From NCBI GenBank assembly GCA_000002445.1, contig CH464491.1:1056001-1120000 (forward strand): a stretch of DNA of 64,000 nucleotides, in the 5' to 3' direction. The stretch is from Trypanosoma brucei (taxonomy: Eukaryota). This document shows positions 3,801 through 58,655 of the stretch, piece after piece. The notes beneath the pieces were generated by a model. The model saw only the letters and a program-made list of their open reading frames with translations, searched no databases and was not told where the DNA came from. Both the position numbers and the translations under genes were made by a program. Position 1 is the first letter of the stretch. Each line of letters opens with the position of its first letter.

Positions 3801-4375
3801 TCTGTTAATTTACCAGCAGTGAACATTTTGTTTTTTTTTTTAAAAAAAAAAAGAGAGGAATAGTAATAATAAAATGAGAGAACAACAGGCGGCAAAAGTA
3901 ACCTGGTGACCCGTCCGTCTCCACCCTCTCCCTTTTTTCCCTTTTCCCTCCGTGGCTGAAGGCTTTTGGTGACTGATGAGGGCGGAGGTGGCTGGTAGCC
4001 GTTCCGCCTGCATTAACTCGGGAAGTAAAAAATAAAAAGTAAAAAAGGAAAGGAAAGTCAATGGACGGTACTCCGCATTCCACTCGCTGAGCGGAGCTGA
4101 ACTTCACTTTGCATCCTTCTTCTTTTCTTTTCTTTTTCTTTTTCTTTTTCTGCTTTCATACATTTTTCTCATTTTTGTAATTTCTGCTTCGCTGCGGTTG
4201 CGTTTTACCGATTATGCCTTCCGCCGTTCTTTGTGGCAGAGTGCAAAAGGTGCGAAGGCCATTGAAAACAGGGTTGGGGGTTCGTACCGTATAAATTAGA
4301 GTTTTCGTACTTGATAGATAAAATAAGGAAGCCAAAACTGTATTGTGGAAAGAAACTGGAGAGCGTGCTGAAACA

Positions 4376-20450: not shown

Positions 20451-21849
20451 GGGGATTTTTATTTTTATTTTTTTTCTTTTTGTTATTATGAGTACAAGAG
20501 GGAGCTTAAAGAAAAAGTGAAAGATGCATATGTGGTTTTCCACACACTCAGAGTGAATGACTGAAGTGGTGGTTGTATGAAATACACAAATATATACGTA
20601 TATATAAATATATATATTTCTTTATGTATTCATACATATATTCACATATTTACATATTTTTATATAAATGTGTGTATTAATAATGATACTACTAGTAGTG
20701 ATATATATGTTTATATGTATTTATTTATATATATTTATGTACTCGTGTGTGCCCTTATGCTTACGTAGGATAACAGATACATATGCACACAAACAAGAAA
20801 AGAAAAAAAAGAAGAAAAAGAGAAAAGGAGGAAAGAAGAAAATGAACATTTACACCCCAGTGCTTTCCTGTGGATTTGTTCTTAATCGAACACACTCCCT
20901 CAAATCCCCCCCGTTTTTTTATATATTGAGTAAAAGCTGCCTCTTTTCTTTTTCTTTTTTTTTTCGTAATGATTGTTTTATTTAAAATATAAAAACTAAT
21001 ATTTTTGTTTTTGTTTCATTTTTGCCTCTTTGAGGAAGGGAAGGAAAGGGAAGGAGGGGAGAAGGGAGGACTCACGAGGGTGATTGAGGGGAGTTCTACA
21101 AAAAAAGTTGATTTTTGGCAGGGTGGCATTTCGTTAAAATTTTTTTATTTTCTTTTTTCTTTTTTTTTTTGCTTCGGTGTGGTGAAGGGCGATGATGGAG
21201 CTGACGTGGATTTACCCACGTTTATCTCTTTTTCTTTCTTTCCTTCTTGTTTCGTTTTTGTTTCGTTTCGTTGTGTTTGTGATTGTGCTTGTGTCTTACT
21301 TGCGTGTCATAATTTGTGAAAAAGAAGGGGTGGGGTTTGTAAGGAAAGGAAAAAGGAAAAAAAATTAGAAATAAAAATAGAAGGGAAGGGAAGAAAAGAG
21401 GGAAAAGAAATAAATGAATAACAAAGGGGGAAAGGAATGAAGGTATTGCAGGAAGTTAAGTTGTAGGTGTTTGTTGGGTGGTCGGTAACAGAAATAAAAA
21501 CGAAAAGAATCGCACATTTTTTTAAAAAAATTTCGAAACGATCATCGAATATATATATATATATATATTATGCCGAAAGAAAAGATTCATTCTCCCCGTT
21601 TTCATATCTAATTTTCATTATTATTACTATTATTGTATATTGACTTTTTCTTGCTTTCCTTCCCCTGGGCATTATGTTGTTTGCCGTCGTCGTAATTCTT
21701 AAGGGAATGTGGTCAACCACTCACGCCCCCCTTCTTAGCATTTTTTTTTTGTTTCACCACCCTTTCCTCAAATCCAGGAACAAAAAATAACCGAAATAAC
21801 CAAAACAAACAAACAATAAATGAGCGTATCGTCTCTATGAAAAGTTAAG

Positions 21850-26073: not shown

Positions 26074-26113
26074 CAAAAGGAGGGGAAAAGGGTTACATTT
26101 TCCCCTCCTTTTG
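26074..26113. repeat. perfect 16-bp inverted repeat (hairpin; stem caaaaggaggggaaaa / ttttcccctccttttg, 8-nt loop gggttaca)
   Basis: Read directly: 26074-26089 is the exact reverse complement of 26098-26113. Lies in the LeuRS-RPT2 spacer. Confidence 0.9.
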
Positions 26114-26726
26114 TCTTTGGTTGTGCCCGGTAGTGCTCACACAAATCTCATTTTTGTTTTCTACATCGTCCCGTTCTCCACTTATCCTGCATTTTGGCGT
26201 GCTGCCATCTGTGCACCATCGCATCCCGCAGTGCGAAAGCCACTTCAACTCCTTTCCCCATTTTCCTCCTGCGCTGCTGAATGTGCATTCGTAAGAGAAG
26301 GCAACGTGGCTTTCATGTTTTTATCGCGAAAACAATATATATATATATATATTTATTTGTTTATTCATTACTGAATTCCCGGATAATGCAACAATTGGTA
26401 ATTGGTTATAGTTATAAATGAACTATTAAGGAGGTGGTGCTTTACCCTCACTCGCTGTCACTCTTCTTTGGTGTTAGTGTCAACGAAACGTCTTTTTTTA
26501 AAGTCGTAAACCCCATGCTAGTCACGTTTAACCGCTTCCTCTCCCCCCCCTTTCCCCTCGTATCATTCTTTAGGAAGGTGATTTGGCAACTATATTGTTG
26601 AAACCCCTCTTAGACGCTTCTACATTCCTTGTATTGAACGCATATTGCCGTCACTGCGGTAACTTCATTTAGTTACTTTCCTTTCTGTGCTTCTTTTTGT
26701 AGAACGCAGGTGCCGGTTTGAGAGGA

Positions 26727-28040
26727 ATGGGGCAAGCAGGTGGGAAGGAGCAGAAGCGCCAACAGGAGAAATGGGAACCTCCGGTGGCGACGGATATTGG
26801 AAAAAAGAAGAAGCGTCATGGCCCTGATGCGGCGGCAAAACTGCCGAAGATATACCCCTCCAGGGCCTGCCTCTTGAAGCAACTACGTCTTGAGCGGTGC
26901 AAAGACTACCTATTGTTGGAGGATGAACTACTCACAATGATTACGTCGCAGTGGGACGCACAGGAAAATCTTGAGGAGGGTGCCATGTCACATTATGAAG
27001 CAGAACTAAGCAAAGTAGATGCTTTGCGTGGGATGCCACTCGAGGTCGGCACCCTTGAGGAGGTTATCGACGATACGCATGCCATAGTTTCCACAGCCGG
27101 CTCGGAGTACTACGTTGCGATGCTTTCGTTCGTTGATAAGGAAAAGTTGGAACTTGGTTGCAGCGTGCTACTCCATGACCGCTACCATAATGTTGTGGGA
27201 CTTCTGGAGAGTAACACAGATCCGCTCGTAAGTGTCATGAAGGTTGATAAGGCACCGCAGGAAACCTATGCTGATATTGGCGGATTAGAGGATCAGATTC
27301 AGGAGATAAAAGAGGCGGTTGAGTTCCCTTTGTCACATCCTGAATTGTTTGATGAAGTCGGCGTAAAGCCACCGAAAGGAGTTATCCTCTACGGTGTCCC
27401 AGGCACTGGTAAGACTTTGCTCGCAAAAGCTGTGGCAAATCAAACGAGTGCCACGTTCCTGCGTGTGGTGGGGTCTGAACTTATTCAAAAATACTCCGGT
27501 GAAGGACCCAAACTCGTCCGGGAATTGTTTCGTGTGGCTGAGGAAAACAGTCCGTCCATCGTTTTTATCGATGAAATTGATGCAATCGGGACAAAAAGGT
27601 ACGATACAGACAGCGGTGGCGCCAAAGAAGTGCAGCGTACCATGTTGGAGTTGCTCACTCAACTCGATGGATTTGATAGCTGTAATGATGTGAAGGTCAT
27701 TATGGCAACAAATCGCATCGAAACATTGGATCCGGCGCTCATTCGTCCGGGCCGTATCGACCGGAAGATTGAGTTCCCGTTTCCCGATGAGAAGACAAAG
27801 AAGATGATTTTTGAGATTCACACGAGCCGCATGTCCCTAGCAGAGGATGTTGATCTGTCGGAGTTCATCCACGCAAAAGACGAGATGAGCGGGGCTGATA
27901 TCAAAGCCATTTGTACCGAGGCTGGTCTCCTGGCCTTGCGCGACCGGCGCATGAAAGTATGTCAGTCCGATTTCGTAAAGGGAAAAGAAAATGTGCAATA
28001 CCGCAAGGATAAGGGTCGCTTCTCCAAGTTTTACCTTTAG
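26727..28040 (+). CDS. RPT2: 26S proteasome regulatory ATPase subunit RPT2 (PSMC1/S4)
   Basis: Near collinear match to PSMC1 along its length: N-terminal MGQ..., PPVPTRVGKKKKK-like basic tract, Walker A GVPGTGKT, Walker [24 protein letters not shown]-terminal hydrophobic-Tyr-X (FYL). First ATG is 26727. Confidence 0.9.
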
Positions 28041-28814
28041 CGGCGTGGTCGGGAATGAGTTGTGTGGGAGGCGGGATGGGTGTAAAAGTCATGCAAAGCA
28101 CAGGGAAAGGCCACAATTCCATATGTGTTTCGACTTTTCTAGTGGCCGCTCGTTCCCTTTAAACTCGTTTCCCTCACTGTCCCGCCTACACCAAAGGTTG
28201 TGGAGTGCCTTTTCTCCCATAATCCCCTCATTTATTACTTCCCTCTGATGAATCTGACAGATGTTGAGTGAATACAGGACTGTGTGTGCGCATGTGTAGT
28301 TGGGTTATATATGCGTCCGCACCGTGAAGAGAAACGACGAGACCGTTGATGTTTCTGGTGTCATGAAACGTACAAAATGATGATTTCCCCCCCTTTCATC
28401 TTCTGACACCTTGCGCAGTACATTTTCAGCGTTTCTATGCATATTACAAATATGTGGGGCAAGTAAAACCGTTTTCTTTTTGTTGGTTCTGTTTTGCACT
28501 ACTTTGCGGTATATCGTCTCCCCGTCTTGTTGTTCCCTTTATTTTGCATTCGCCACAAACGCGGCCTTTGGTTTCCACAGTAGACACGCAAAATACAATC
28601 AGTAAATAAAAAGGTAGCGCAGAGGCGACAGGTGGCACTGACAGTTTGCCACTTTTAACGCACTTGTCTCTGCAAGATAGCAGGGAGGCTGTTATCTTTC
28701 TTTTCGGTTGAAGCTGTTTTTTTTTTTTTGTTCTATAGGTGTATTTATATTCTTTTTTTGTTATTATTATCGTTACCCTTGGAAGACAGCCAATCACTTT
28801 GTTGAGTCGCAGGA

Positions 28815-29735
28815 ATGATGCTCGCAGTTATCGTAGCTTTTGCGGTCATTTTTTTTGTTACGTTGGCTCTTGCCGGCCGGGGGCTTCTTCCTTTTTATCG
28901 TTATCCTCCCATCGCCCTCAACCCAGACGTATATCAGTCGTTCAAACTTGTGAAGAAAACTCGCGTGACGCATGATTCTTTCATTTTTCGCTTTGCCCTC
29001 CACGCCTCGCATCAATGCCTTGGTTTACCGACGGGTCACCACATTCGGTTCCGTGTCGCGTCCAAACACAACTTTACGGGCACCCCACAAGTTGTTCAGC
29101 ACTCTTACACTCCCATTTCATCAAATGACGACAAGGGATTCGTGGATTTCCTTGTGAAAATATATTACAAGGGCTCCAATCCGGCATTCCCCAACGGTGG
29201 GCGGCTCTCACAACATCTTGACAGTTTGTCCATTGGTGAGGCTGTGGAGATGTTGGGCCCAGTGGGGAAGTTTCAGTACATGGGAAACGGTGACTATACG
29301 GTGGAGATGGGTAAGGGAGAGGTAAAGCGGCAGCATGTAGCTGGTTTTGCAATGGTTGCTGGTGGTACAGGGATTACACCAATGATGCAAATTATTCATG
29401 CCATACTTAAATCACCTGAGGATCCCACGCGGCTTTGGTTAGTCTATTCCAACCACACAGAAGAGGACATTTTACTGCGGGATGCACTAGCCGAGGCATG
29501 TAAGGACCCGCGTGTGAAGGTATGGCACACTCTCACTCGCAGTGCCCCCCCGGATTGGGCGTATGGAAGAGGGCGTGTTAACGAAGAGATGCTTCGCACT
29601 CACCTCCCCCCACCGCAGCTGGAGGAGGGCTCAGTAACCGTATTGTTATGTGGTCCCCCGCTTATGCTTCAGGACGCAGTGAAGCCAAACCTGCTCAACA
29701 TTGGGTACTCACAAGACAATATATTTACCTTTTAA
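28815..29735 (+). CDS. NADH-cytochrome b5 reductase, N-terminally membrane-anchored
   Basis: N-terminal hydrophobic helix MMLAVIVAFAVIFFVTLALAG. FAD motif VVQHSYTPISSNDDKGFVDFLVKIYYK (compare RPYTPISS...KGFVDLVIKVY). NADH motif GGTGITPM. CGPPLM near C-terminus. Confidence 0.85.
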   Translation: MMLAVIVAFAVIFFVTLALAGRGLLPFYRYPPIALNPDVYQSFKLVKKTRVTHDSFIFRFALHASHQCLGLPTGHHIRFRVASKHNFTGTPQVVQHSYTPISSNDDKGFVDFLVKIYYKGSNPAFPNGGRLSQHLDSLSIGEAVEMLGPVGKFQYMGNGDYTVEMGKGEVKRQHVAGFAMVAGGTGITPMMQIIHAILKSPEDPTRLWLVYSNHTEEDILLRDALAEACKDPRVKVWHTLTRSAPPDWAYGRGRVNEEMLRTHLPPPQLEEGSVTVLLCGPPLMLQDAVKPNLLNIGYSQDNIFTF

Positions 29736-30821
29736 TGAAACGTTCAGTAGGGTTTGTTGTTGGTGTTGTTGGGGGCAAAGGGAGCGTCGCAAATTCAAGT
29801 GCTCTAGCGGACGAGTGTAAATAATATGAACAATAAAACACAACCGAGCACGTGCCAACAAATGGTGGCACGCATAGCCAGTTGGCACAAAGACTGCACT
29901 GGAGCTGCTCCCTTGTGCATCGTCTCTCCATAATCCCCTTCTTCGGTCGTAATCATGCGACGCAAATTTACAATAACAAATTAATCAGCTCAGTGAGGTT
30001 AAGGCACCGAGACACATTTCTGTACAGTTGTTACAACAGGTGGAATGAATGAGGAATGAGGGAGAGGGGATCAGAAAAGTACTCAACTGTGGTTGCTTGT
30101 CGCGGTGTTTCGTGCAGCTTTCTTTCAGTGAAGAAATGGTTATCGTACGATCGTATTTTACCCCACATACACTCCGTTTTCTTGCCTTAATATGATACGG
30201 TGTGGAAGCAAAACTCTGACAGTGATTTCCCCTCGCTCGTGTATTTTACCCGTCGTAACGAAATGATATTTTCCGTGCTCTCTTTTCTTCTTTTCACCGC
30301 CAGGCCGCAGAGACGGTTAGGTTTGGGAGTGATACCGTTTTGTTTTTTTTTGTTTTTTTTGTAAAGGAGAGAATAATAAAGACAAAGTGTTCTGTAACCT
30401 TCCTCTTTTGTGTGTGGAAAAATAAAAGAGGATACAAAGAGGGGAGAGAGGCGTATAGTCATCAAAGTTCCCGAGCGGGAAGAGAAGAAAAGGGGGAAAA
30501 AGTAAAGGGACAGGAAAAGAGGTCGAAATACTCGTTCGTCTACAGTCTTTGCCTTCTTTCAGCTGTGACTGAAGCGGGGAACTCAAGTACACTTTTATTT
30601 GGGTGGGGGAAGTGAGAGTAGGTTCTCTAAAAAAGAATTTAACGTCCGCTGCGTCACACACACACACACACTCATATACATATATAGGAAACTAGGGGGA
30701 AAAGGTAAGAAGAAGGGAGTAGGTAATTGTAAACGATAAGAGCCTGTCAAAAGGTACAGGTAAATCGACAGAAACAAACAGTAGGGACACATTTTCACTT
30801 CCAACCGACCCAAATACATAT

Positions 30822-31544
30822 ATGGAAACGAAAGAGAGTTGCAGGGAGCAGGACCCTGACGTGGTGTGTGGACAGGAAGAAGCACAAACCCCTGAAGCCA
30901 CATGTGGGGAAGAAGCGACAGAAACACAAGAGGCGCCCGAGGCTACAGAAATGAAAGGAGAGGAACAACAGGACGACAATCCTTCGTGTGAAAATGAGGA
31001 AGCACAAAACGCCGGTGCTCCCCCTGATGAAGAGGAGGGAGACGTAACCGAACCCCCGGATGCAGCAGCCGGGTCCCATACGTCACAGGAAGCTGGAGTG
31101 AACTCCGTTACTGCTGAAGGGGGTTCCGCTTGCACTTCCCCAAAGGGCGTAAGTGTTACGGCACCTTCACCTACTGAAGACAATTTTCCGGATCGACAAC
31201 CACAAATTCGACGGCGGTTGTCATGTGCAGGGCTGCGAATCGGGGAACACTCGCGTCAGGTCGATGAGGAATACGGTTATCCTCCGTCACATTATCACAC
31301 ACTTACTGTGAATTGCGGTGGTGCCAACGGGGATGGCGATAATATTAACTGTGGGCAACCCTTTGCTCCCATGGCGAGGGGAGTGGGACTTGTTGATCTT
31401 CCGTCCATGTATGCGAAAAAAGATAACGCTAATGGAGATGCCGTTCTCCCAGCCGCCTCACTGTTTGCGCATGGAAGCCCGGGGGAGGAATGGGAATCCA
31501 CCTTCACCGTTAAGATGGGTTTACATGCCAATGATGATGACTGA
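30822..31544 (+). CDS. acidic (D/E-rich) hypothetical protein, probably intrinsically disordered N-terminal half
   Basis: 240-aa ORF with coding-like codon usage. N-terminus very E/D/T/P-rich; no domain recognised. Confidence 0.4.
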   Translation: METKESCREQDPDVVCGQEEAQTPEATCGEEATETQEAPEATEMKGEEQQDDNPSCENEEAQNAGAPPDEEEGDVTEPPDAAAGSHTSQEAGVNSVTAEGGSACTSPKGVSVTAPSPTEDNFPDRQPQIRRRLSCAGLRIGEHSRQVDEEYGYPPSHYHTLTVNCGGANGDGDNINCGQPFAPMARGVGLVDLPSMYAKKDNANGDAVLPAASLFAHGSPGEEWESTFTVKMGLHANDDD

Positions 31545-31785
31545 TTGAAATGGTGTTATTGTTCGCCCTGCGAGGTCCTTTCTTTTCATTTTCTTTCCTT
31601 TTGTTTTATTTTATTCTTATCCTTATTATTTTATACCATTGTTTTAAGCAGCAACTAGTTTACTCCGTTTTCCTCCTTTTTTTTTTTGCGTCTGTGTTTT
31701 GTAACACTATTGCTTGTAGGGTGAGAATGGGATATTCCGCTAAGGAGGGAGAGGGGTTACAAAAGAAGAAAAAAAAAAGAAAAGA

Positions 31786-31813
31786 ATGGGATGGGATGGG
31801 ATGGGATGGATGG
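31786..31813. repeat. (ATGGG)4(ATGG)2 microsatellite immediately 5' of the 23-bp inverted repeat
   Basis: atgggatgggatgggatgggatggatgg read directly. Confidence 0.9.
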
Positions 31814-31822
31814 ATGAGAAGG

Positions 31823-31919
31823 GGGGGGACACAAATCCAACATAACCTGAAGAAGAGCGTACTTTTGCATGCGTATGTTTTTTTTTGTGTGTGTGATTAT
31901 GTTGGATTTGTGTCCCCCC
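31823..31919. repeat. perfect 23-bp inverted repeat (ggggggacacaaatccaacataa ... ttatgttggatttgtgtcccccc) with 51-nt spacer
   Basis: 31823-31845 is the exact reverse complement of 31897-31919. Both + and - ORF-track translations in this region show the mirrored peptides GTQIQHN / YVGFVSP. Confidence 0.9.
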
Positions 31920-33610
31920 TCCCAATTCCTTTTTTGTTTTCAGTTTGCCTCCTTCCCGCTGCGAAGTGTGTAGTTATATTACGCCTCTATACCCTTTTTA
32001 AAATTTGACAGTTCCTTTTTTATTTTGATGATTTTCATTCTTCCGCTAATGATGGTGGGTGCAGCCGTTTGGTACGGTACAGTTTTTCTTTTTCGTTTTT
32101 TTTATTTCATGTATTTCCATCCCTTTTCCCCTTTTACACACATCCTTTTCTTTTTGTATTGCAATTGCACACATTTTGTTTCGTTTCATACTGGCGGCCG
32201 CAAGCACCCGCATGAGTACAGAAAAAAAAAAAAGACATATGTGGATGGGGCGGATGAAAAAGAAACTTGTCTCATATTTTTCACACGCATTTTCTTACCG
32301 TACGCATTGGTGAGAGTACACGTGTGTAAATTTATTGCCAGTGCGTAAGCAGTTGGTTGAAAGGAGATTTAAAAACAAAAAATGTTGGAGGTGGAAGGCG
32401 CAAAGAGATATGTTCTTGTGTGAAGAAGGAAGGTTGGAAAGAACAACATGGTTGATCCCATGACATGTAAATACACGCATATAGTAATAATCAAAAATAA
32501 AAAGAGGAAAAAAGAGGAAATGCAGCCACCTACGGTACATGAAGCACAGGGCGTATATGATAGTAAAACCAGAGACACCAGGCTGCACCCATCATTTTAA
32601 GTGTTCTCATCTTTGCCTTTTTTTTTCTTTTGCATGGCTTTACATCGCTGAATGGACTTTACCTAAATGCGGGAAAGTGTATGTATGAATCTGTATAAAT
32701 AAATAAATAAATATAAATAAATATATATATATATATATTCGTGTGTGGGTGTGGGTAGGTGTGTGGGAGAGAAAGGAGGGGATTTCATGCGCATACATTT
32801 ATATGTCTATGAAGTATGTGCGTGTGAAACAATTATTCCTTTGCTCCCTTTTTCTTCTTCTTCTTCTTTTGTCTTGTCTTCCTTTTTAATCGTTTGGGAA
32901 GCTAAGATACGATTGAGCCATGATAAGAAAAAAAAATGAATAGATGAGGGGAATAGACAGTGTAATTGCAAAAAGAAAAAAAAAGCAGGGGAAAAGCCTT
33001 TCCCTCTGTTCAACTTTATTTTTCTCCCCGTCGTCGCACTCTTCTTTTTCATTTCTTCGATTTTTTTTTCCAAAAAAAAAAATCCCCTTCTCTCTCATTT
33101 GTGCACCCCTTTCTAATTTACGAGAGTAACGTTGGGGGAGAAAAAGCATGAAAAAAAAAGATACGTGGGATCTTTCAATAATAATTATTGAGGGTTGTTG
33201 TTGTTATTATTATCCGTATCATTATTTTTGTTATTGCTTTTCCCCCGTTTGTCTCCTTTTCGTCTTCGCCTTTGTTGTAATTTATATTTCCCACGGTTTG
33301 TTTGTAATTGTTTTTTTTCTTTTTTGCCATCCCTTTAATCAGAAGCACCCACAACACCTTACCCGAAGTTTGGTAGGGGGGAAAAAAATGAAGGGATGTC
33401 AAGGCATTTGGCACATTTCGTAGACGAGCAGGAAAAGTCAAATAAAATGAAAAGAAATGGGATGAAGTGAAGTAAGGATGAAATGCAGCGAAGTGGATAA
33501 AAGCGGAGAAAGGAATGCGGGGGGAGAGTGGGTGATGTTTAATATTCGAGAAATTTTCTTGAAAACATGTGTGAATGAGTTGAGTTGATTGAGACGTTTT
33601 GATGTTTTTG

Positions 33611-33645
33611 CTGCTGTTGTTATTGTTGTTGTTGTTGTTGTTGTG
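33611..33645. repeat. (GTT)n / (GCT)n trinucleotide repeat
   Basis: gctgctgttgttattgttgttgttgttgttgttgtg. Produces the poly-N run in the spurious minus-strand ORF 33175..33813. Confidence 0.9.
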
Positions 33646-34028
33646 TTTTGCTGTTGAATGTAAGTGACCACTGATTCGGAGTGCATACGGTTTTGGTCCT
33701 ACCTTATGCTTTGTGTTGTCATGTGCGTTTTTTTTTTTTTTTGGTACCCTCTTCCCAATGTGTATGTTAGCGCGTGTACGGGCTTGAGCCACGTGGCTTG
33801 AAGATTTCGCCATGTGTTTCCCTCCTATTATTGTTATTTATGGAACTGTTCTTTTCCCTTTATTCTGCTTTGCGTTTTGGTGGGAAAAAGAAGAGCACGC
33901 CACAAGGGAGAAACAGTGAAAAGCAGAAGGGGGAATACTCATAAGCAATCAGATACAAAGGGAAAGGGAAAAAGAAAGCATAAAGAATAGGAGCACAGTG
34001 AGGGAAAGAGCGGGGCGAATCATTCATC

Positions 34029-34817
34029 ATGATTCCTGCCCTTAATGGTGTTGTTACAAAAACTGTTCTTCTCGTGCGACCGCGCTACGCACAACAGTTG
34101 GAGCTCCGCGCCCTTACAAAATACAAATTACACGAGGCCGGTTTTATCATCGTTCGTGAAGAGTACCGTCGGGTGAATGAAGAGCTTGCTGATAAAATTG
34201 CCGTTCAGCTCGACCGCGCTGCCTTTCTTAGTGGCACGGCGGCTCCCGAAGAGGTGGAGGCAGTTAACGAGGGTGATAGTGCCACAAATGGCTCGCGGAT
34301 GTTCACACGCTCGCACGTTACAGTTGGCGCACAAGAACTTGTGGGGAATGCGTACTTATACGTCCTGGCCCATCGGGATTGCCACGCAGAGCTGCTTCGG
34401 TTCCTTGACCGCCTTTTTGCTGATGAGGATTACACAATGCTGTTGATGAGTATTAACGAAGAGGGAAAGGAGGCAGGTTCAGCAGCGGGGTCAGCGGCCA
34501 CTCAACAGCAGGGTGATTCGCGCGGCCCGTCTATTCAATGCCCGCTATTCTGCAATGTCACAAGTGTCGCAGCAAAACAAGTTGTTCAACTGCTATTTCC
34601 ACGTATGCTTGTCCACGATGTGCCGAACCGTACGGTAACGCGTGAGTATGTGCAGGCGGAGTTGAAGAACGCGTTGATGCCTGCGCTCGTTGAGCTGTCG
34701 AGAGCAAAACCAGAAAACCCCATCCGGTGGTTAGCTGAGCGATTGTTGAATACAAACGTGCGGGCTCCTCCACTAATATCCGCAGCTAACGGCGATACTG
34801 AGGTTACAGAACAGTAG
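34029..34817 (+). CDS. protein with degenerate nucleoside-diphosphate-kinase-like N-terminal region and C-terminal Dpy-30/RIIa-like dimerisation motif
   Basis: C-terminus VQAELKNALMPALVELSRAKPENPIRWLAERLL fits the Dpy-30 motif (..L..GL..L...RP.DPI.FLA.YLL). N-terminal TVLLVRP...HEAGFIIVREEYRRVNEELADK resembles the NDK start TFIAIKPD...GF.LVA.K........HY. Confidence 0.45.
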   Translation: MIPALNGVVTKTVLLVRPRYAQQLELRALTKYKLHEAGFIIVREEYRRVNEELADKIAVQLDRAAFLSGTAAPEEVEAVNEGDSATNGSRMFTRSHVTVGAQELVGNAYLYVLAHRDCHAELLRFLDRLFADEDYTMLLMSINEEGKEAGSAAGSAATQQQGDSRGPSIQCPLFCNVTSVAAKQVVQLLFPRMLVHDVPNRTVTREYVQAELKNALMPALVELSRAKPENPIRWLAERLLNTNVRAPPLISAANGDTEVTEQ

Positions 34818-35770
34818 AGGGCGGTTGCAAGTGCTTTCATGAATGAAAGGAATGCGTTACTTTTTGTTGTAAAATGTCCTCACACATTTGAGAGTGGGCA
34901 GACGATACGAAGATAGAGGTGGCGAGTGAAAGCAGTGCGACATTATGGTGGTGGCGAATTTTTGGTTGTGTATTATTGTGTTGCTTATGTATGTGGCGGC
35001 TGAAGGTACGAATGGTGAACCTTCGTAACACAATTCTTATGTTCTCTTGTTTCTGTCCCATGTGCTTTTTTGTTTTGTGATTTGTTCTCCATCATGTATA
35101 GTTGCACTAGATGACACATGTGAGGAAGTACAAGTGGAACTGGGATAAAAAAAATCTTTAAGGATTAGTTCTACGTAGGGTTGGCGAAATCCCTGCGAGT
35201 TGATGTTGTTTTTTTCCCTCATCATTGTTGCTTTCGTCTTGAGCGTATTTCAGTTGGGTTTTGACTTCTTTTCCTCCCCCTTTTGTGTTTATTTTTGTTT
35301 CTGCCCCAAGTAAGCTAACTTAAGGATGTGTTGGTGAAGGTCAGCCTCTGTTACTCGTTAAAGTGCGTGGGTGCGGTGCACTCATCTCAGATGACGAACA
35401 CGTAGCGATGGTAAATAGCTGAAGTGAGCGAACGCATGATAAAATGTCTATTTTTTGAGGTAAAAGCAAAAAAAAAAACAACAACAACTGTGGGGTTACA
35501 AGTGAGGGAAAGTTTTGGATGGTGTATTTGTCGTTCATCCTTCCCCATTTATATTTTTTGGCACCCTACAAATTCTCATGTGATGTGCTGTCACTGCTAC
35601 CCCCTCTCTTTTTCGTATGGGGTCGGAAGGAGGGTGGAACTGGAGAGTGAGTTGATTTCGCGTGTCGGAAGCGATTGCAAGACAGGCATGATTGTTATCG
35701 GCAACGCTGATGCGGAAATGAATGAGAATAACTATGATGTGGTGTGCATGTGTCGGCATATGAGCATATA

Positions 35771-35774
<4 letters not shown>

Positions 35775-35813
<39 letters not shown>
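35775..35813. repeat. (TA)19 dinucleotide microsatellite
   Basis: Uninterrupted run read directly; upstream of the subtilisin gene. Confidence 0.95.
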
Positions 35814-35816
<3 letters not shown>

Positions 35817-36137
35817 TGTTCCTCAGCGGGCCGCGCTTGCGCTGCTACAATTACTGTTGTGGTGTTTGTAGCCTTACCATGCGTGTAAGGTATACGGACG
35901 GTTAATTTTGGGTAAAAATAATGAAGCCGTGCATTTTGTTTGCAACTGGTTTTCGGTCGCTCTCGTCCATTAGCCGGTACTTCGCCTCTGGGAGGTGACC
36001 GAGGGCATCATTCGGTACTTTTAGTTACCATCAGGAGTGATCTGTCAGGAAGGCTGAGAAGAAAATTTCCCCCACTTTTCCCCGCCTAACTTTATCTACT
36101 CTCTACCATTTAATAATCGATGAAATGAAATCACAGC

Positions 36138-40943: not shown

Positions 40944-41822
40944 ATGAAAGCCAGGCGGGCTGCTCGCGGCTCACTAAAGGAGCCTAAGCAAATTCCTTAC
41001 ACAAAATCCTCACCATTTGTAGCTTCTGCTCAGGCACGAGGTGCCGGTAACTTACTATGGAAGAAACCAATGGCTTTCCTGTCACGTATGGTTTCGGTGG
41101 TGATGGAAAAGGTTCGATCGTCACCGAGTAAGCATCTCAAATACGGCGATATTTTGCGCGACATTCCCTTCCATGTGCACAACCGCATTATCAGTTACTT
41201 CTCGACGCATCCAACCCTTTGCGTAGAGGTGTTTGGTGTTTCCCACGGGCAGTGTATCCGCTTCACCCATGGGCCGTGGGCTAGACAAACAGCAATTGTT
41301 ATTGGTGTGCGGGGCGGGAAGCTTTGGGTGCTGGACAAAGATGGCCCTGTGATGGCCCGACCCTTGTTTACAATAGAGCAACATGACTGGGAAAAGCTTT
41401 TGCCGGATGAGGAGCTGCTGAAGCGACTCAAAGAGGGACTAGAAGTGGCGCGACGAGGTGCAGAGCTGGACTATGATCCCGAGCAGCGGGAGTTTCTGCA
41501 GAAGGCGCCTGATTTATTTGTAGAAGTGGTTGATGACGACATGGATTATGCAAACGCTGGCTCCTCGGCAGCATTGAGCAGCCGAGGTAGCTGCGCCAAA
41601 ACCATTCGAAGTGAGCGGTATACCAGCAACGTAAACCCGGTTAGAGGCATGGACGATGGTATTTTTGAACTTCCTGAGCGGTCCCGAAAACGCGTGATTC
41701 TCGTTCCTCAGATTGCTCAAGTAACGGGAGACGCGGGATGGGCTGGTGAGGGTCTCGTCGTGGTGAATGGGGGTGGTGTGAGGTCTTTTACATCTTCCTT
41801 ATCCGCCTCGGTGCTTTTGTAA
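40944..41822 (+). CDS. hypothetical protein
   Basis: 292-aa ORF with non-repetitive, coding-like composition. First ATG is 40944 (ORF-track 40929 is TTG). Only ~340 nt downstream of the subtilisin stop. Confidence 0.45.
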   Translation: MKARRAARGSLKEPKQIPYTKSSPFVASAQARGAGNLLWKKPMAFLSRMVSVVMEKVRSSPSKHLKYGDILRDIPFHVHNRIISYFSTHPTLCVEVFGVSHGQCIRFTHGPWARQTAIVIGVRGGKLWVLDKDGPVMARPLFTIEQHDWEKLLPDEELLKRLKEGLEVARRGAELDYDPEQREFLQKAPDLFVEVVDDDMDYANAGSSAALSSRGSCAKTIRSERYTSNVNPVRGMDDGIFELPERSRKRVILVPQIAQVTGDAGWAGEGLVVVNGGGVRSFTSSLSASVLL

Positions 41823-54172: not shown

Positions 54173-54244
54173 GGAAGAGGAAGAAGGATGTGCTGCGGAA
54201 GACAAGTGGGTTAAACGAACGCATGATATTCTTCTTCCTCTTCC
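54173..54244. repeat. 14-bp homopurine/homopyrimidine inverted repeat (ggaagaggaagaag ... cttcttcctcttcc), 44-nt spacer
   Basis: 54173-54186 is the reverse complement of 54231-54244. Lies just downstream of the AMP deaminase stop. Confidence 0.85.
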
Positions 54245-57013: not shown

Positions 57014-57096
57014 CTTCGGGTGTACGCGTATTTGTGTAAGGTGGAAATGGCATCTCCCCCGCCATTTCTAAGCGGTGCGATAAATATCTGTATATC

Positions 57097-57102
<6 letters not shown>

Positions 57103-57134
<32 letters not shown>
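57103..57134. repeat. (TA)16 dinucleotide microsatellite
   Basis: Uninterrupted run ~90 nt downstream of the 55658-57013 CDS stop. Confidence 0.95.
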
Positions 57135-57138
<4 letters not shown>

Positions 57139-58655
57139 GTTATGAGCATCCTTACATTTGAAATCCTTCCGAAAAACAGACGTATATATATACCGTAGTG
57201 CGCGTTTTTATTGCATGGTGGGCGACGCTGATGACGGCAGTGAGAACAACGTTATTGTTTGTGAAAATGTTTTTTAAAGCAATTATTATTCTTTCTCTTC
57301 GTACAGGTATTACCTGCTTTATTTGTATGGCGGAAGAGTAGCAACCGAGGGAGTCGTTAACAAAAAAAAGTGATGTGGAAATGAAAAAAGATTACGTTAA
57401 AAATGAGGGAGGCGAATCAGTGTTACGAATTCTAAGGGATGTCACATATGCGTGTATGTGTTTGTTGTGTGCTCACAAAACTGAAGCGGATCGGTGAGAG
57501 ATGATGGGGTGTGAAATGAACATAAAGGGGAGGTTGAATGGGTTGCAGGAGTGAATGGTGTCGGTGAATAAATAAAAATTCCGAGGTTTTAAAGATCAAG
57601 TTCCATTTTTTCCCAAGGGACGACGATTGTGGCTTCACATGGCAATGCATATATTCCGTGATGTTGGTTCTTAGTTTCCCTTGAGGGGGTTTGTTCTTAA
57701 TTTTCTTGCGTCTTATTCTTTGTTTCGAAAACCTCATAACTCGCAGTGAACGAGCAAATTGGGAGGTTGTTTCTCTTTTCTTTACTCTCCGACCACTTGT
57801 TATGCCGTCCACCTTCGGTTTATTTTCTTTAAAAAGGGAGTTCACATGAGAGAAGAACACTAGCCGGCCGCTCATCAGGTTGACTACGGGATGCCTTGAC
57901 TTTATTATTATTATTATCATTTTGTCCATAAACTCTTGCTTTCACCGTGAACGTGAAGTGATCTGATCTTTTAATTGCTTCACACCAAACCCCCTAATTT
58001 TCTTCTTCCTCCCGCCCGCTCTGATACGACACCGTGTAATTATATCCTGAGCCTGATTTTTACTCTTAACGTCCTTTTTTGTGCCATTTATTTTTCTTGA
58101 ATATACGTTTCCCCGAGGAAGCTTTCTGCACTACTGTTTTTTGTACAAGCAATACATGTATATAAATATGTATATTTTTCCTCCCACCTTTTTCTTTAAT
58201 TTCTTTGCCGAACCTGTACACACGCAAACAATAAATATAAACCGATTACATGCTTTAACGAGTAGAGATCCGTTACGTATTATCACTTCGGATCAGTTCA
58301 CTCCCATATTAGGTGTGAATATATCACACACCTCACCTTCTTTATATAGCTTCCTTGCATAGAACTGCCCTTGTATTGTGTATTAGACCAACACGGGATA
58401 TAATTTCTACGAGATTGGTAAGGTCAATCAGTGGCTAAGTGGAGAAGCAGTGAAAATACAAAGGGGATTTGAATCATAGCTCATTTATTTGTTTTTTCCT
58501 CTTTTCTGGTTCTACCGACCGTCGTAGAAGAGTGTAACGGTATATATATTAATATATCTTTCACTCCTCTCTCTTGCTCGTTGTTTTTTTTTTGATTCCG
58601 CTTGAGCGTGCGCACCATACGAGAGGGAGGAACAGACGGTTTTTTTTTTTGGGAT

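What the first reader, a model, noticed from the sequence alone, without database searches (positions are those of the whole stretch)
31786..31919. Perfect 23-bp inverted repeat with adjacent (ATGGG)n microsatellite in a 2.5-kb ORF-free spacer
A 23/23 perfect inverted repeat separated by 51 nt will fold into a long hairpin in the polycistronic precursor RNA. Chance expectation for a perfect 23-mer inverted repeat within 100 nt in 64 kb is negligible. In RNAi-competent trypanosomes (T. brucei) long intramolecular dsRNA is a Dicer substrate. It could also be a processing/stability element, a cruciform-forming site, or a remnant of a small palindromic element. The G6/C6 ends and flanking GT/AC-rich sequence suggest replication-slippage origin.
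Basis: seen in the sequence. Interest (0 to 1): 0.5.

Follow-up and report, generated by a model that had tools for sequence, protein, structure and literature searches.

The report
Young single-copy RNA hairpin in trypanosome spacer
A real, far-from-chance 23-bp perfect inverted repeat sits in the non-coding stretch after a Trypanosoma brucei-specific gene, but it is single-copy, found only in the brucei group and best read as a young replication-error by-product, not a small-RNA gene.

Summary
Arms 31823-31845 and 31897-31919 are 23/23 complementary with a 51-nt spacer, next to an (ATGGG)5.8 array. In 200 local shuffles no perfect stem exceeded 15 bp.

The window matches T. brucei brucei TREU927 chromosome 11. 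The hairpin lies 278 nt after the stop of Tb11.02.1240, a brucei-specific gene, on the transcribed strand, 6 nt before a polypyrimidine-AG signal.

It is present in all four Trypanozoon genomes I could fetch and absent from the T. vivax syntenic spacer. It has no second copy in the DNA held and matches no Rfam family. The arms vary as much as the surrounding spacer, so there is no sign of constraint. Two weaker hairpins lie in other spacers of the same window.

Best reading: a young inverted duplication made in one step by replication template switching in a slippage-prone tract. It is transcribed, probably neutral, and at most a local structural element.

The Dicer idea is weak. Known T. brucei siRNA-producing inverted repeats have arms of 422 bp to 10 kb, and two small-RNA surveys found no miRNAs.

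Whether the hairpin survives in a mature RNA is unresolved.

Interest is low to moderate.

The parts
30822..31544 (+). Upstream gene Tb11.02.1240 (probably Tb927.11.3760), a 240-aa protein specific to T. brucei spp. Its stop codon lies 278 nt before the hairpin.
   Evidence: 100% identical to XP_828457.1, with no homologue outside the Trypanozoon cluster. No Pfam domain. The new-style ID is inferred from gene order between Tb927.11.3750 and Tb927.11.3780.
31576..31687 (+). Two polypyrimidine tracts (31576-31624 and 31668-31687) followed by AGs at 31647 and 31718. These are candidate trans-splice/polyadenylation signals right after the upstream gene.
   Evidence: Tract map. Transcript contigs of the upstream gene from six RNA-seq runs all end at 31613-31633.
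31786..31813 (+). (ATGGG)n microsatellite. Positions 31788-31805 form a canonical G-quadruplex motif, G3-AT-G3-AT-G3-AT-G3.
   Evidence: TRF: 5.8 copies. One of four such motifs in 64 kb. Two units shorter in GCA_003543875.1 and T. b. gambiense, which removes the canonical motif.
31821..31828 (+). G8 homopolymer. Its last six G form the outer end of the 5' arm. Length is polymorphic.
   Evidence: 7, 8 or 11 G in the four Trypanozoon genomes.
31823..31845 (+). 5' arm of the inverted repeat (A/C-rich, unlike the G/T-rich sense-strand background).
   Evidence: the repeat finder I2, 23/23. Invariant in four genomes. Positive GC skew and mostly negative AT skew across most of the spacer.
31846..31896 (+). 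51-nt spacer/loop. On the + strand RNA only, 31848-31862 pairs with 31873-31887 (15 bp with many G-U pairs), leaving a 10-nt apical loop at 31863-31872.
   Evidence: RNA fold. The inner helix is absent on the - strand and with DNA parameters. The T-run and GT tract are polymorphic.
31897..31919 (+). 3' arm of the inverted repeat (T/G-rich, continuous with the GT-rich tract before it).
   Evidence: One A-to-G change at 31906 in GCA_003543875.1 turns an A-U pair into G-U.
31926..31943 (+). 16-nt polypyrimidine tract followed directly by AG (31942-31943), 6 nt after the 3' arm. A candidate trans-splice acceptor signal.
   Evidence: Tract map. It can pair with the purine tract 31761-31789 in the wider fold, though this is low-complexity pairing.
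33849..33930 (+). Polypyrimidine tract (33849-33871), AG at 33889, and the 5' ends of the Dpy-30 mRNA contigs (33904-33930). This marks the downstream limit of the non-coding spacer RNA.
34029..34817 (+). Downstream gene: Dpy-30 motif protein (262 aa, XP_828458.1).

Best explanation
The feature is a single-copy inverted duplication of about 23-25 nt, restricted to the Trypanozoon lineage. It lies in the non-coding, Pol II-transcribed spacer downstream of the brucei-specific gene Tb11.02.1240.

The most likely origin is one replication template-switch event. The nascent strand briefly copied the opposite or folded-back strand, inside a tract full of slippage-prone runs (G8, T9, (GT)n, (ATGGG)n). 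The T/G-rich 3' arm fits the local sense-strand composition, so it is probably the original, and the A/C-rich 5' arm the copy.

The polycistronic precursor RNA should fold here into a 25-bp perfect stem, extended on the + strand by a 15-bp G-U-rich inner helix. I think the hairpin is selectively neutral. At most it is a passive structural block that could influence use of the polypyrimidine-AG signal 6 nt downstream, or decay of the spacer RNA. It is not a dedicated small-RNA gene.

Shown: the repeat, its non-random nature, its strand, its position, its restriction to the brucei group, its single-copy status in the DNA held, and the lack of detectable constraint.
Inferred: the template-switch origin, which arm is ancestral, that it is transcribed, and neutrality.
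For: - Perfect 23/23 repeat far beyond the shuffle null.
- Present in the window (= TREU927 proteins), T. equiperdum OVI, GCA_003543875.1 and T. b. gambiense DAL972.
- Absent from the syntenic 2.9-kb spacer of T. vivax, which has no inverted repeat of 14 nt or more.
- No spacer similarity to T. vivax, T. cruzi or T. theileri beyond low-complexity matches.
- No second copy in 64 kb or in any fetched locus. No called ORF resembling the hairpin translations among 5.8 billion proteins.
- Arms carry 1 substitution in 46 nt against 0.67 expected from the spacer-wide 1.45% variable sites, so no constraint signal.
- All local indels sit in homopolymers or microsatellites.
- A perfect 46-nt pairing survives with probability 0.5 at 1.5% divergence and 0.1 at 5%, which fits a young event.
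- Template switching is documented to create perfect stems of tens of bases in a single event in unstructured sequence (PMC8794818; PMC10710096).
- Two further strong hairpins lie in other spacers of the same window: 26074-26113, 16 bp perfect, and 54173-54244. This suggests a recurring mutational product, not a unique device.
- No Rfam family at gathering score.
Against: - No alignable outgroup was available, so the state before the event, which is the defining evidence for a template switch, was not seen.
- Strain divergence is too low (0.4-1.2%) to exclude purifying selection on the stem.
- The only arm substitution keeps pairing (A-U to G-U) on the + strand RNA. The inner G-U helix exists only on the transcribed strand. 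Both are weak hints of an RNA-level role.
- The position directly upstream of a polypyrimidine-AG signal and next to a G-quadruplex motif could be functional.
- Genome-wide copy number could not be measured.
Confidence: 0.55

Rival explanations
1. Cis-acting RNA structural element. The hairpin sits in the 3'UTR of Tb11.02.1240 or at the 5' end of an unannotated spacer transcript. It would control mRNA stability or translation, or the choice of poly(A)/trans-splice site, for example by binding a protein or by presenting or masking the polypyrimidine tract 6 nt downstream. The neighbouring G-quadruplex motif could compete for the G-run.
For: - On the transcribed strand. The + strand fold is 11 kcal/mol stronger than the - strand because of a G-U-rich inner helix.
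- The polypyrimidine tract 31926-31941 plus AG follows the 3' arm directly. A purine tract upstream can pair with it.
- The only arm substitution is G-U compatible.
- Discrete 3'UTR stem-loops do regulate trypanosome mRNAs, for example the NT8 element (PMC4066783; PMC8053114).
- Tb927.11.3760 mRNA, if that is this gene, is selectively enriched with EIF4E3 (PMC9585242).
Against: - No conservation outside near-identical genomes and no excess constraint on the arms.
- The canonical G-quadruplex motif is lost in two of four genomes.
- The inner helix and the outer extension are poly-U or polypyrimidine pairing with purine runs, which arises easily by composition.
- Transcript contigs of the upstream gene stop about 190 nt before the hairpin, so it may not be in that mRNA.
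Confidence: 0.25
2. Endogenous Dicer substrate. TbDCL2 or TbDCL1 would cut the 25-bp stem and yield one discrete 22-25 nt duplex, a miRNA-like or short hairpin-RNA locus acting on its own transcript or in trans.
For: - T. brucei is RNAi-competent, and fold-back RNAs from inverted repeats do give siRNAs (PMC3447711).
- Stem plus inner helix total about 40 bp with a 10-nt apical loop.
- Sub-threshold resemblance to miRNA-precursor models in Rfam (mir-3923 at 39 bits).
- Template-switch hairpins have become miRNA genes in primates (PMC10710096).
Against: - Known siRNA-yielding inverted repeats have arms of 422-10,011 bp. Seven were catalogued and none is here; the chromosome 11 one is at 4.22 Mb.
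- No miRNAs were found in AGO1-bound procyclic libraries or in slender/procyclic small-RNA libraries.
- The Rfam hits occur on both strands and are far below gathering scores (39 against 94 bits), so they only say 'this is a hairpin'.
- The perfect stem equals a single siRNA length.
- No Drosha-type enzyme is known in trypanosomes to free the stem base (my own knowledge, not tested).
- No second site in 64 kb matches the arm as a possible target.
Confidence: 0.1
3. DNA-level element. The repeat would extrude as a cruciform, or fold in single-stranded DNA, and act as a fragile site, recombination or replication pause site. Alternatively it is the terminal inverted repeats of a miniature foldback/MITE-like mobile element.
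For: - The single-stranded DNA fold is -25.3 kcal/mol, z -6.9.
- Formally it is a 97-bp unit with 23-bp terminal inverted repeats.
- Indel polymorphism is dense around it.
Against: - A 51-nt spacer strongly disfavours cruciform extrusion from duplex DNA (my own knowledge, not tested).
- The indels are ordinary homopolymer and microsatellite slippage, seen throughout the spacer.
- No direct repeats flank the unit (GAGAAGG on one side, TCCCAAT on the other).
- No other copy in any DNA held.
- DNA transposons with inverted termini are not known in T. brucei (my own knowledge).
Confidence: 0.07

Closest known systems
Template-switch-mutation (TSM) hairpins (Monttinen and Loytynoja 2022, PMC8794818; Monttinen et al. 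2023, PMC10710096)
   Same: A perfect reverse-complement repeat tens of bases long, close together, lineage-specific, lying in otherwise unstructured transcribed non-coding sequence, and not explained by point mutations.
   Different: The ancestral, pre-event sequence could not be reconstructed, because no outgroup aligns. The loop is long (51 nt). Those papers studied mammalian and rRNA loci, not kinetoplastids.
T. brucei long inverted-repeat siRNA loci IR1-IR7 (Tschudi et al. 2012, PMC3447711)
   Same: Same organism. Near-perfect inverted repeats transcribed by Pol II that can fold back into double-stranded RNA.
   Different: Arms there are 422-10,011 bp, against 23 bp here. Those loci have sequenced AGO1-bound siRNAs, and this one is not among them. 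A 23-25 bp stem can give at most one siRNA-length duplex.
Discrete 3'UTR stem-loop regulators in trypanosomes, e.g. the NT8 purine-responsive element (PMC4066783, PMC8053114)
   Same: A short RNA stem-loop downstream of a coding region, in an organism that regulates genes post-transcriptionally.
   Different: The NT8 element was shown by reporter assays to be necessary and sufficient, and has identified binding proteins. Here there is no functional evidence, it is unclear whether the hairpin is in the mature mRNA, and the stem is much longer and perfectly paired.
Animal/plant miRNA precursors and Drosophila hairpin RNAs
   Same: Overall shape on the + strand: about 40 bp of stem with an internal loop and a 10-nt apical loop. 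Weak covariance-model resemblance.
   Different: No Rfam family reaches its gathering score. No small RNA is known from the site. Two T. brucei small-RNA surveys report no miRNAs.

Membership tests
T. brucei long-IR siRNA loci (Tschudi 2012) | Inverted-repeat arms of hundreds to thousands of bp (422-10,011 bp) with about 99-100% identity | tested here: not met
   Arms are 23 bp (25 bp in RNA).
T. brucei long-IR siRNA loci (Tschudi 2012) | AGO1-bound 22-25 nt siRNAs mapping to the arms, dependent on DCL1/DCL2 | not testable with these tools
   No read data are available. The locus is not one of the seven listed repeats. The 'miscellaneous' loci in the supplement carry no coordinates.
miRNA precursor / hairpin-RNA gene | Match to a curated precursor family at its gathering score | tested here: not met
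   No hits at gathering score in the whole window. Best sub-threshold hit is 39.4 bits against 94, and hits occur on both strands.
miRNA precursor / hairpin-RNA gene | A discrete mature small RNA with defined ends, produced from the stem | not testable with these tools
   Literature only: no miRNAs detected in T. brucei libraries.
Template-switch-mutation hairpin | Perfect reverse-complement copy of a nearby sequence, not made up mainly of simple repeats | tested here: met
   23/23 with a 51-nt gap. Arm complexity is ordinary apart from the G6/C6 ends: the two commonest dinucleotides make up 0.41.
Template-switch-mutation hairpin | The parent/outgroup sequence has the source arm but lacks the copy (event placed on a tree branch) | not testable with these tools
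   All four Trypanozoon genomes already have both arms. T. vivax, T. cruzi and T. theileri spacers do not align. T. congolense DNA could not be fetched.
Regulatory 3'UTR stem-loop (NT8 PuRE type) | Located inside the mature mRNA 3'UTR | tested here: inconclusive
   Transcript contigs of the upstream gene from six RNA-seq runs end 69-89 nt after the stop, about 190 nt before the hairpin. They end inside a T-rich tract where assemblies can break. The Dpy-30 mRNA starts at about 33904-33930.
Regulatory 3'UTR stem-loop (NT8 PuRE type) | Necessary and/or sufficient for regulation in reporter assays; bound by a specific protein | not testable with these tools
   Needs an experiment.
Regulatory 3'UTR stem-loop (NT8 PuRE type) | Evolutionary constraint or covariation in the stem | tested here: inconclusive
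   1 substitution in 46 arm positions against 0.67 expected, and it is G-U compatible. Divergence of 0.4-1.2% gives no power.
MITE / foldback transposable element | Multiple dispersed copies | tested here: not met
   No other copy in the 64-kb window or in any fetched locus. No related called ORF in the protein collection. The whole genome was not searchable.
MITE / foldback transposable element | Target-site duplication flanking the terminal inverted repeats | tested here: not met
   The flanks ...GATGAGAAGG and TCCCAATTCC... share no direct repeat.
Canonical G-quadruplex motif (G3+N1-7)x3 G3+ | Four G3 runs with loops of 1-7 nt, conserved among relatives | tested here: inconclusive
   Met in the window (31788-31805) and in T. 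equiperdum OVI. Lost as a canonical motif in GCA_003543875.1 and T. b. gambiense, which have two fewer ATGGG units.

The most novel reading that the evidence does not exclude
The hairpin is a newly born hairpin-RNA gene of the Trypanozoon lineage. A template-switch event created a Dicer-competent stem. TbDCL2/TbDCL1 cut it into one discrete 23-25 nt AGO1-loaded small RNA. That would be the first miRNA-like locus in a trypanosome, possibly made only in life stages not yet sequenced deeply. A milder version: it works with the adjacent G-quadruplex motif as a structural switch that sets poly(A)/trans-splice site choice for a brucei-specific gene or spacer lncRNA.
Probability: 0.06. Interest if true: 0.7.

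Novelty: new member of a known kind. Interest (0 to 1): 0.22.

Why it matters
If the best reading is right, this matters little for trypanosome biology. It would be a clean, dated example in a kinetoplastid of how replication errors place perfect RNA hairpins into transcribed non-coding sequence. Such hairpins are the raw material from which regulatory stem-loops or small-RNA genes could later evolve.

It would matter more if the stem turned out to be processed or to steer RNA processing. Trypanosomes regulate genes almost entirely after transcription. They have no known miRNAs, and few discrete cis-elements have been defined.

Three strong hairpins in one 64-kb window, each 150-330 nt past a stop codon, suggests that a genome-wide census against poly(A) and spliced-leader maps would be worth more than study of this one locus.

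Tried and rejected
- **Rfam:** the whole window at gathering score gave nothing. A permissive scan of the spacer gave only generic hairpin hits on both strands.
- **Upstream gene homologues:** a homology search found none outside the brucei cluster.
- **T. congolense locus:** the orthologue's protein is not in the contig index, so the nearest outgroup was not available.
- **siRNA paper supplements:** only convergent-transcription units have coordinates. The 'miscellaneous' loci do not.
- **lncRNA catalogue (PMC9200285):** no supplements are held.
- **Spacer as remnant of an ancestral gene:** tblastn with the T. cruzi, T. theileri and T. vivax positional genes found nothing.
- **Fishing for transcript contigs or other copies:** a concatenated translation of the hairpin-spanning ORFs gave no hits.
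- **Logan RNA-seq contigs of the neighbouring genes:** none reaches the hairpin.
- **Coding reading of the 152-aa ORF across the hairpin:** rejected. Frames differ between haplotypes and there is no Pfam match.
- **Literature on the gene IDs:** nothing for Tb11.02.1240. One table entry for Tb927.11.3760.
- **Not done:** scans of the bacterial, viral and metagenome DNA collections for the arm, because they do not hold trypanosome genomes.

Full report
**1.

The window has a perfect inverted repeat. Its arms are 31823-31845 (GGGGGGACACAAATCCAACATAA) and 31897-31919, 23 of 23 positions complementary, with 51 nt between them. An (ATGGG)5.8 array lies just upstream at 31786-31813.

A naive expectation for such a stem in 64 kb is about 1e-7. 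In 200 shuffles that keep dinucleotide content within 300-nt blocks, the longest perfect stem was 15 bp. The arm occurs nowhere else in the window, even with three mismatches allowed.

As RNA, the + strand of 31780-31930 folds at -61.9 kcal/mol (z -5.9) and the - strand at -51.0 (z -7.0). In a 120-nt sliding scan of both strands it is the strongest fold in the window apart from a (TA)n palindrome at about 35.8 kb.

On the + strand the perfect stem grows to 25 bp through a G-U and a G-C pair. A second 15-bp helix, rich in G-U pairs (31848-31862 with 31873-31887), forms inside the loop and leaves a 10-nt apical loop. That inner helix is missing on the - strand and with DNA parameters. It is largely a purine run paired with poly-U, so I give it little weight.

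**2. Where it is**

Three proteins encoded around the site are 100% identical to T. brucei brucei TREU927 proteins:
- NADH-cytochrome b5 reductase;
- the hypothetical protein Tb11.02.1240;
- a Dpy-30 motif protein.

The downstream subtilisin-like gene is Tb11.02.1280 = Tb927.11.3780, and the b5 reductase is Tb927.11.3750. By gene order, the upstream gene is probably Tb927.11.3760. That is an inference.

Every ORF over 250 aa in the window is on the + strand, so the site lies inside one polycistronic transcription unit. The hairpin starts 278 nt after the stop of Tb11.02.1240 and 2.1 kb before the Dpy-30 start codon.

The 2.5-kb interval has no credible coding sequence. Its mechanical ORFs are low-complexity and have no Pfam match reaching the curated cut-off. 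The ORFs crossing the hairpin change frame between strains.

**3. RNA processing signals around it**

Polypyrimidine tracts followed by AG, the trypanosome trans-splicing signal, lie at:
- 31576-31624 (AG at 31647);
- 31668-31687 (AG at 31718);
- 31926-31941, with the AG directly after it and only 6 nt past the 3' arm.

Some public Logan contigs proved to be transcriptome assemblies. One begins with the 3' part of the spliced leader and ends in poly(A).

Dpy-30 mRNA contigs from five runs begin at 33904-33930, just after the 33849-33871 tract. So the spacer is not part of the Dpy-30 5'UTR.

Contigs of the upstream gene from six runs all end at 31613-31633, which is 69-89 nt after the stop and about 190 nt before the hairpin. 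That could be a poly(A) site. In that case the hairpin lies in a separate spacer transcript or in discarded RNA. It could equally be an assembly break in a T-rich tract, and one contig does run on into unrelated sequence. I treat this as unresolved.

**4. Conservation**

The hairpin is present at the same place in T. equiperdum OVI, in assembly GCA_003543875.1 (from memory, T. b. equiperdum IVM-t1) and in T. b. gambiense DAL972. The differences among these genomes are:
- ATGGG copy number (two units fewer in two genomes);
- G-run length (7, 8 or 11);
- the loop T-run and GT tract;
- one A-to-G change in the 3' arm of GCA_003543875.1, which turns an A-U pair into G-U.

Across the whole spacer, 36 of about 2,480 sites vary and there are 32 indel events, nearly all in homopolymers or microsatellites. 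That predicts 0.67 substitutions in the 46 arm positions, and 1 is observed. The data therefore show neither constraint nor decay. They have no power.

Outside Trypanozoon the picture is different:
- The T. vivax syntenic spacer (2.9 kb) has no inverted repeat of 14 nt or more.
- The T. cruzi and T. theileri spacers are only about 0.9-1.2 kb.
- None of these aligns with the T. brucei spacer beyond low-complexity matches.
- The gene between the b5 reductase and Dpy-30 is itself replaced. The T. cruzi and T. theileri versions are related to each other, but not to the T. vivax or T. brucei genes.

T. congolense DNA could not be fetched.

**5. What it is not**

- **Not a known RNA family.** No Rfam family reaches its gathering score anywhere in the window. 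The permissive scan gives miRNA-precursor models on both strands at less than half their thresholds, which only says 'hairpin'.
- **Not a detected dispersed repeat.** There is no second copy in the window or in any fetched locus. There is no related called ORF in the protein collection. No target-site duplication flanks it. The whole genome could not be searched.
- **Not one of the known siRNA-yielding inverted repeats.** Those seven loci have arms of 422 to 10,011 bp, and the chromosome 11 one lies at 4.22 Mb. T. brucei siRNAs are 22-25 nt, so this stem is only one siRNA long. AGO1-bound libraries and slender/procyclic small-RNA libraries revealed no miRNAs.

**6. Most likely explanation**

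A perfect stem of this length cannot come from point mutations. Slippage makes direct repeats, not inverted ones. Replication template switching is documented to create perfect stems of tens of bases in one event in previously unstructured, transcribed sequence (PMC8794818; PMC10710096).

The site is full of slippage-prone runs that are polymorphic today. Most of the spacer's sense strand is G/T-rich. The 3' arm matches that composition and continues a GT-rich tract, while the 5' arm is A/C-rich. So I infer the 5' arm is the copy.

A 46-nt perfect pairing has a 50% chance of surviving 1.5% divergence and a 10% chance of surviving 5%. The event is therefore either recent, on the stem lineage of Trypanozoon, or the pairing is maintained. 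With no evidence for maintenance I favour recency and neutrality (confidence 0.55).

The same window holds two more strong hairpins in other spacers:
- a 16-bp perfect stem with an 8-nt loop at 26074-26113, also beyond the shuffle null and conserved in two other genomes (L001 and L003);
- a 19-bp RNA stem at 54173-54244.

They lie 331 and 154 nt after stop codons. This makes the 23-bp hairpin the extreme member of a recurring kind, not a unique device.

**7. Rivals**

- **Cis-acting structural role in mRNA stability or processing-site choice (0.25).** This is the main alternative, given the strand asymmetry, the G-U-compatible change, the polypyrimidine-AG signal right after the stem, and the known NT8 3'UTR stem-loop precedent.
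- **Dicer substrate (0.10).** Possible but goes against the published surveys.
- **DNA-level role or mobile-element remnant (0.07).** Unlikely, given the 51-nt spacer, no flanking duplications and no other copies.

The (ATGGG)n array is a canonical G-quadruplex motif, one of four in the window. The canonical form is lost in two of four genomes, which argues against an essential role.

**8. Verdict**

This is a real and statistically striking feature, but an ordinary one in kind: a lineage-specific, single-copy hairpin in transcribed non-coding DNA, probably a template-switch product. It is a new member of a known kind and interest is low to moderate.

The decisive data are small-RNA reads, poly(A) and spliced-leader maps, a genome-wide hairpin census and a closer outgroup. 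All of these exist publicly or are easy to generate, but none was reachable with these tools.

Noticed in passing
window 26074-26113: A second perfect hairpin: 16-bp stem (CAAAAGGAGGGGAAAA / TTTTCCCCTCCTTTTG) with an 8-nt loop, 331 nt after the leucyl-tRNA synthetase stop. RNA fold -29.7 kcal/mol, z -5.7. It also exceeds the shuffle null (0 of 200 shuffles reach 16 bp) and is conserved in L001 (17 bp) and L003.
   Followed up: partly
window 54173-54244: A third strong hairpin: 14-bp perfect core, 25 nt at 84%, 19 bp as + strand RNA. Fold -39.5 kcal/mol, z -5.1. It lies 154 nt after the stop of the 1,565-aa ORF. With the other two, that makes three hairpins 150-330 nt past stop codons in one 64-kb window.
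   Followed up: partly
window 30822-31544, with L004 2260-3084, L007 3706-5115, L008 3261-4838: The gene slot between NADH-cytochrome b5 reductase and the Dpy-30 gene has turned over. T. brucei has a 240-aa brucei-specific protein and T. vivax an unrelated 274-aa one. T. cruzi (469 aa) and T. theileri (525 aa) share a homologous gene (E 3e-16) that has no trace in the T. brucei interval.
   Followed up: partly
L017 (Logan ERR7929157_8073), maps to window 34106-35478: A transcript contig that starts with the 3' part of the spliced leader and ends in poly(A). Its first 1.9 kb is a different mRNA (514-aa ORF) fused to the Dpy-30 mRNA, so it is a chimeric assembly. It places a Dpy-30 poly(A) site near window 35478, while other contigs run on to about 35950, suggesting alternative poly(A) sites.
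   Followed up: partly
L018 (Logan ERR7929163_5433), maps to window 26577-30155: A single 3.6-kb RNA-seq contig spans the proteasome ATPase gene, the intergenic region and the b5 reductase gene. The libraries therefore contain enough unprocessed or read-through RNA to bridge some spacers.
   Followed up: no
window 35757-35821 and 57080-57143: (TA)n palindromic microsatellites. The first gives the strongest local fold in the whole window (z -5.7). The transcript contigs L011-L015 align in two pieces here, with a small gap around 35783-35796, which indicates length polymorphism.
   Followed up: no
L009 3775-4113 (T. b. gambiense), about window 32.8-33.2 kb: The gambiense assembly carries a called 112-aa gene on the minus strand inside the spacer, opposite to the direction of the transcription unit. 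It is probably a spurious call in low-complexity sequence.
   Followed up: no
window 33599-33656 and 32694-32738: A (TTG)20 array and an AT-rich (TAAA/TA)n array in the same spacer. Both vary in length among the four Trypanozoon genomes.
   Followed up: partly
window 21038-21066, 41726-41752 (+) and 3924-3948 (-): The only other canonical G-quadruplex motifs in the 64 kb, besides the (ATGGG)n array.
   Followed up: no
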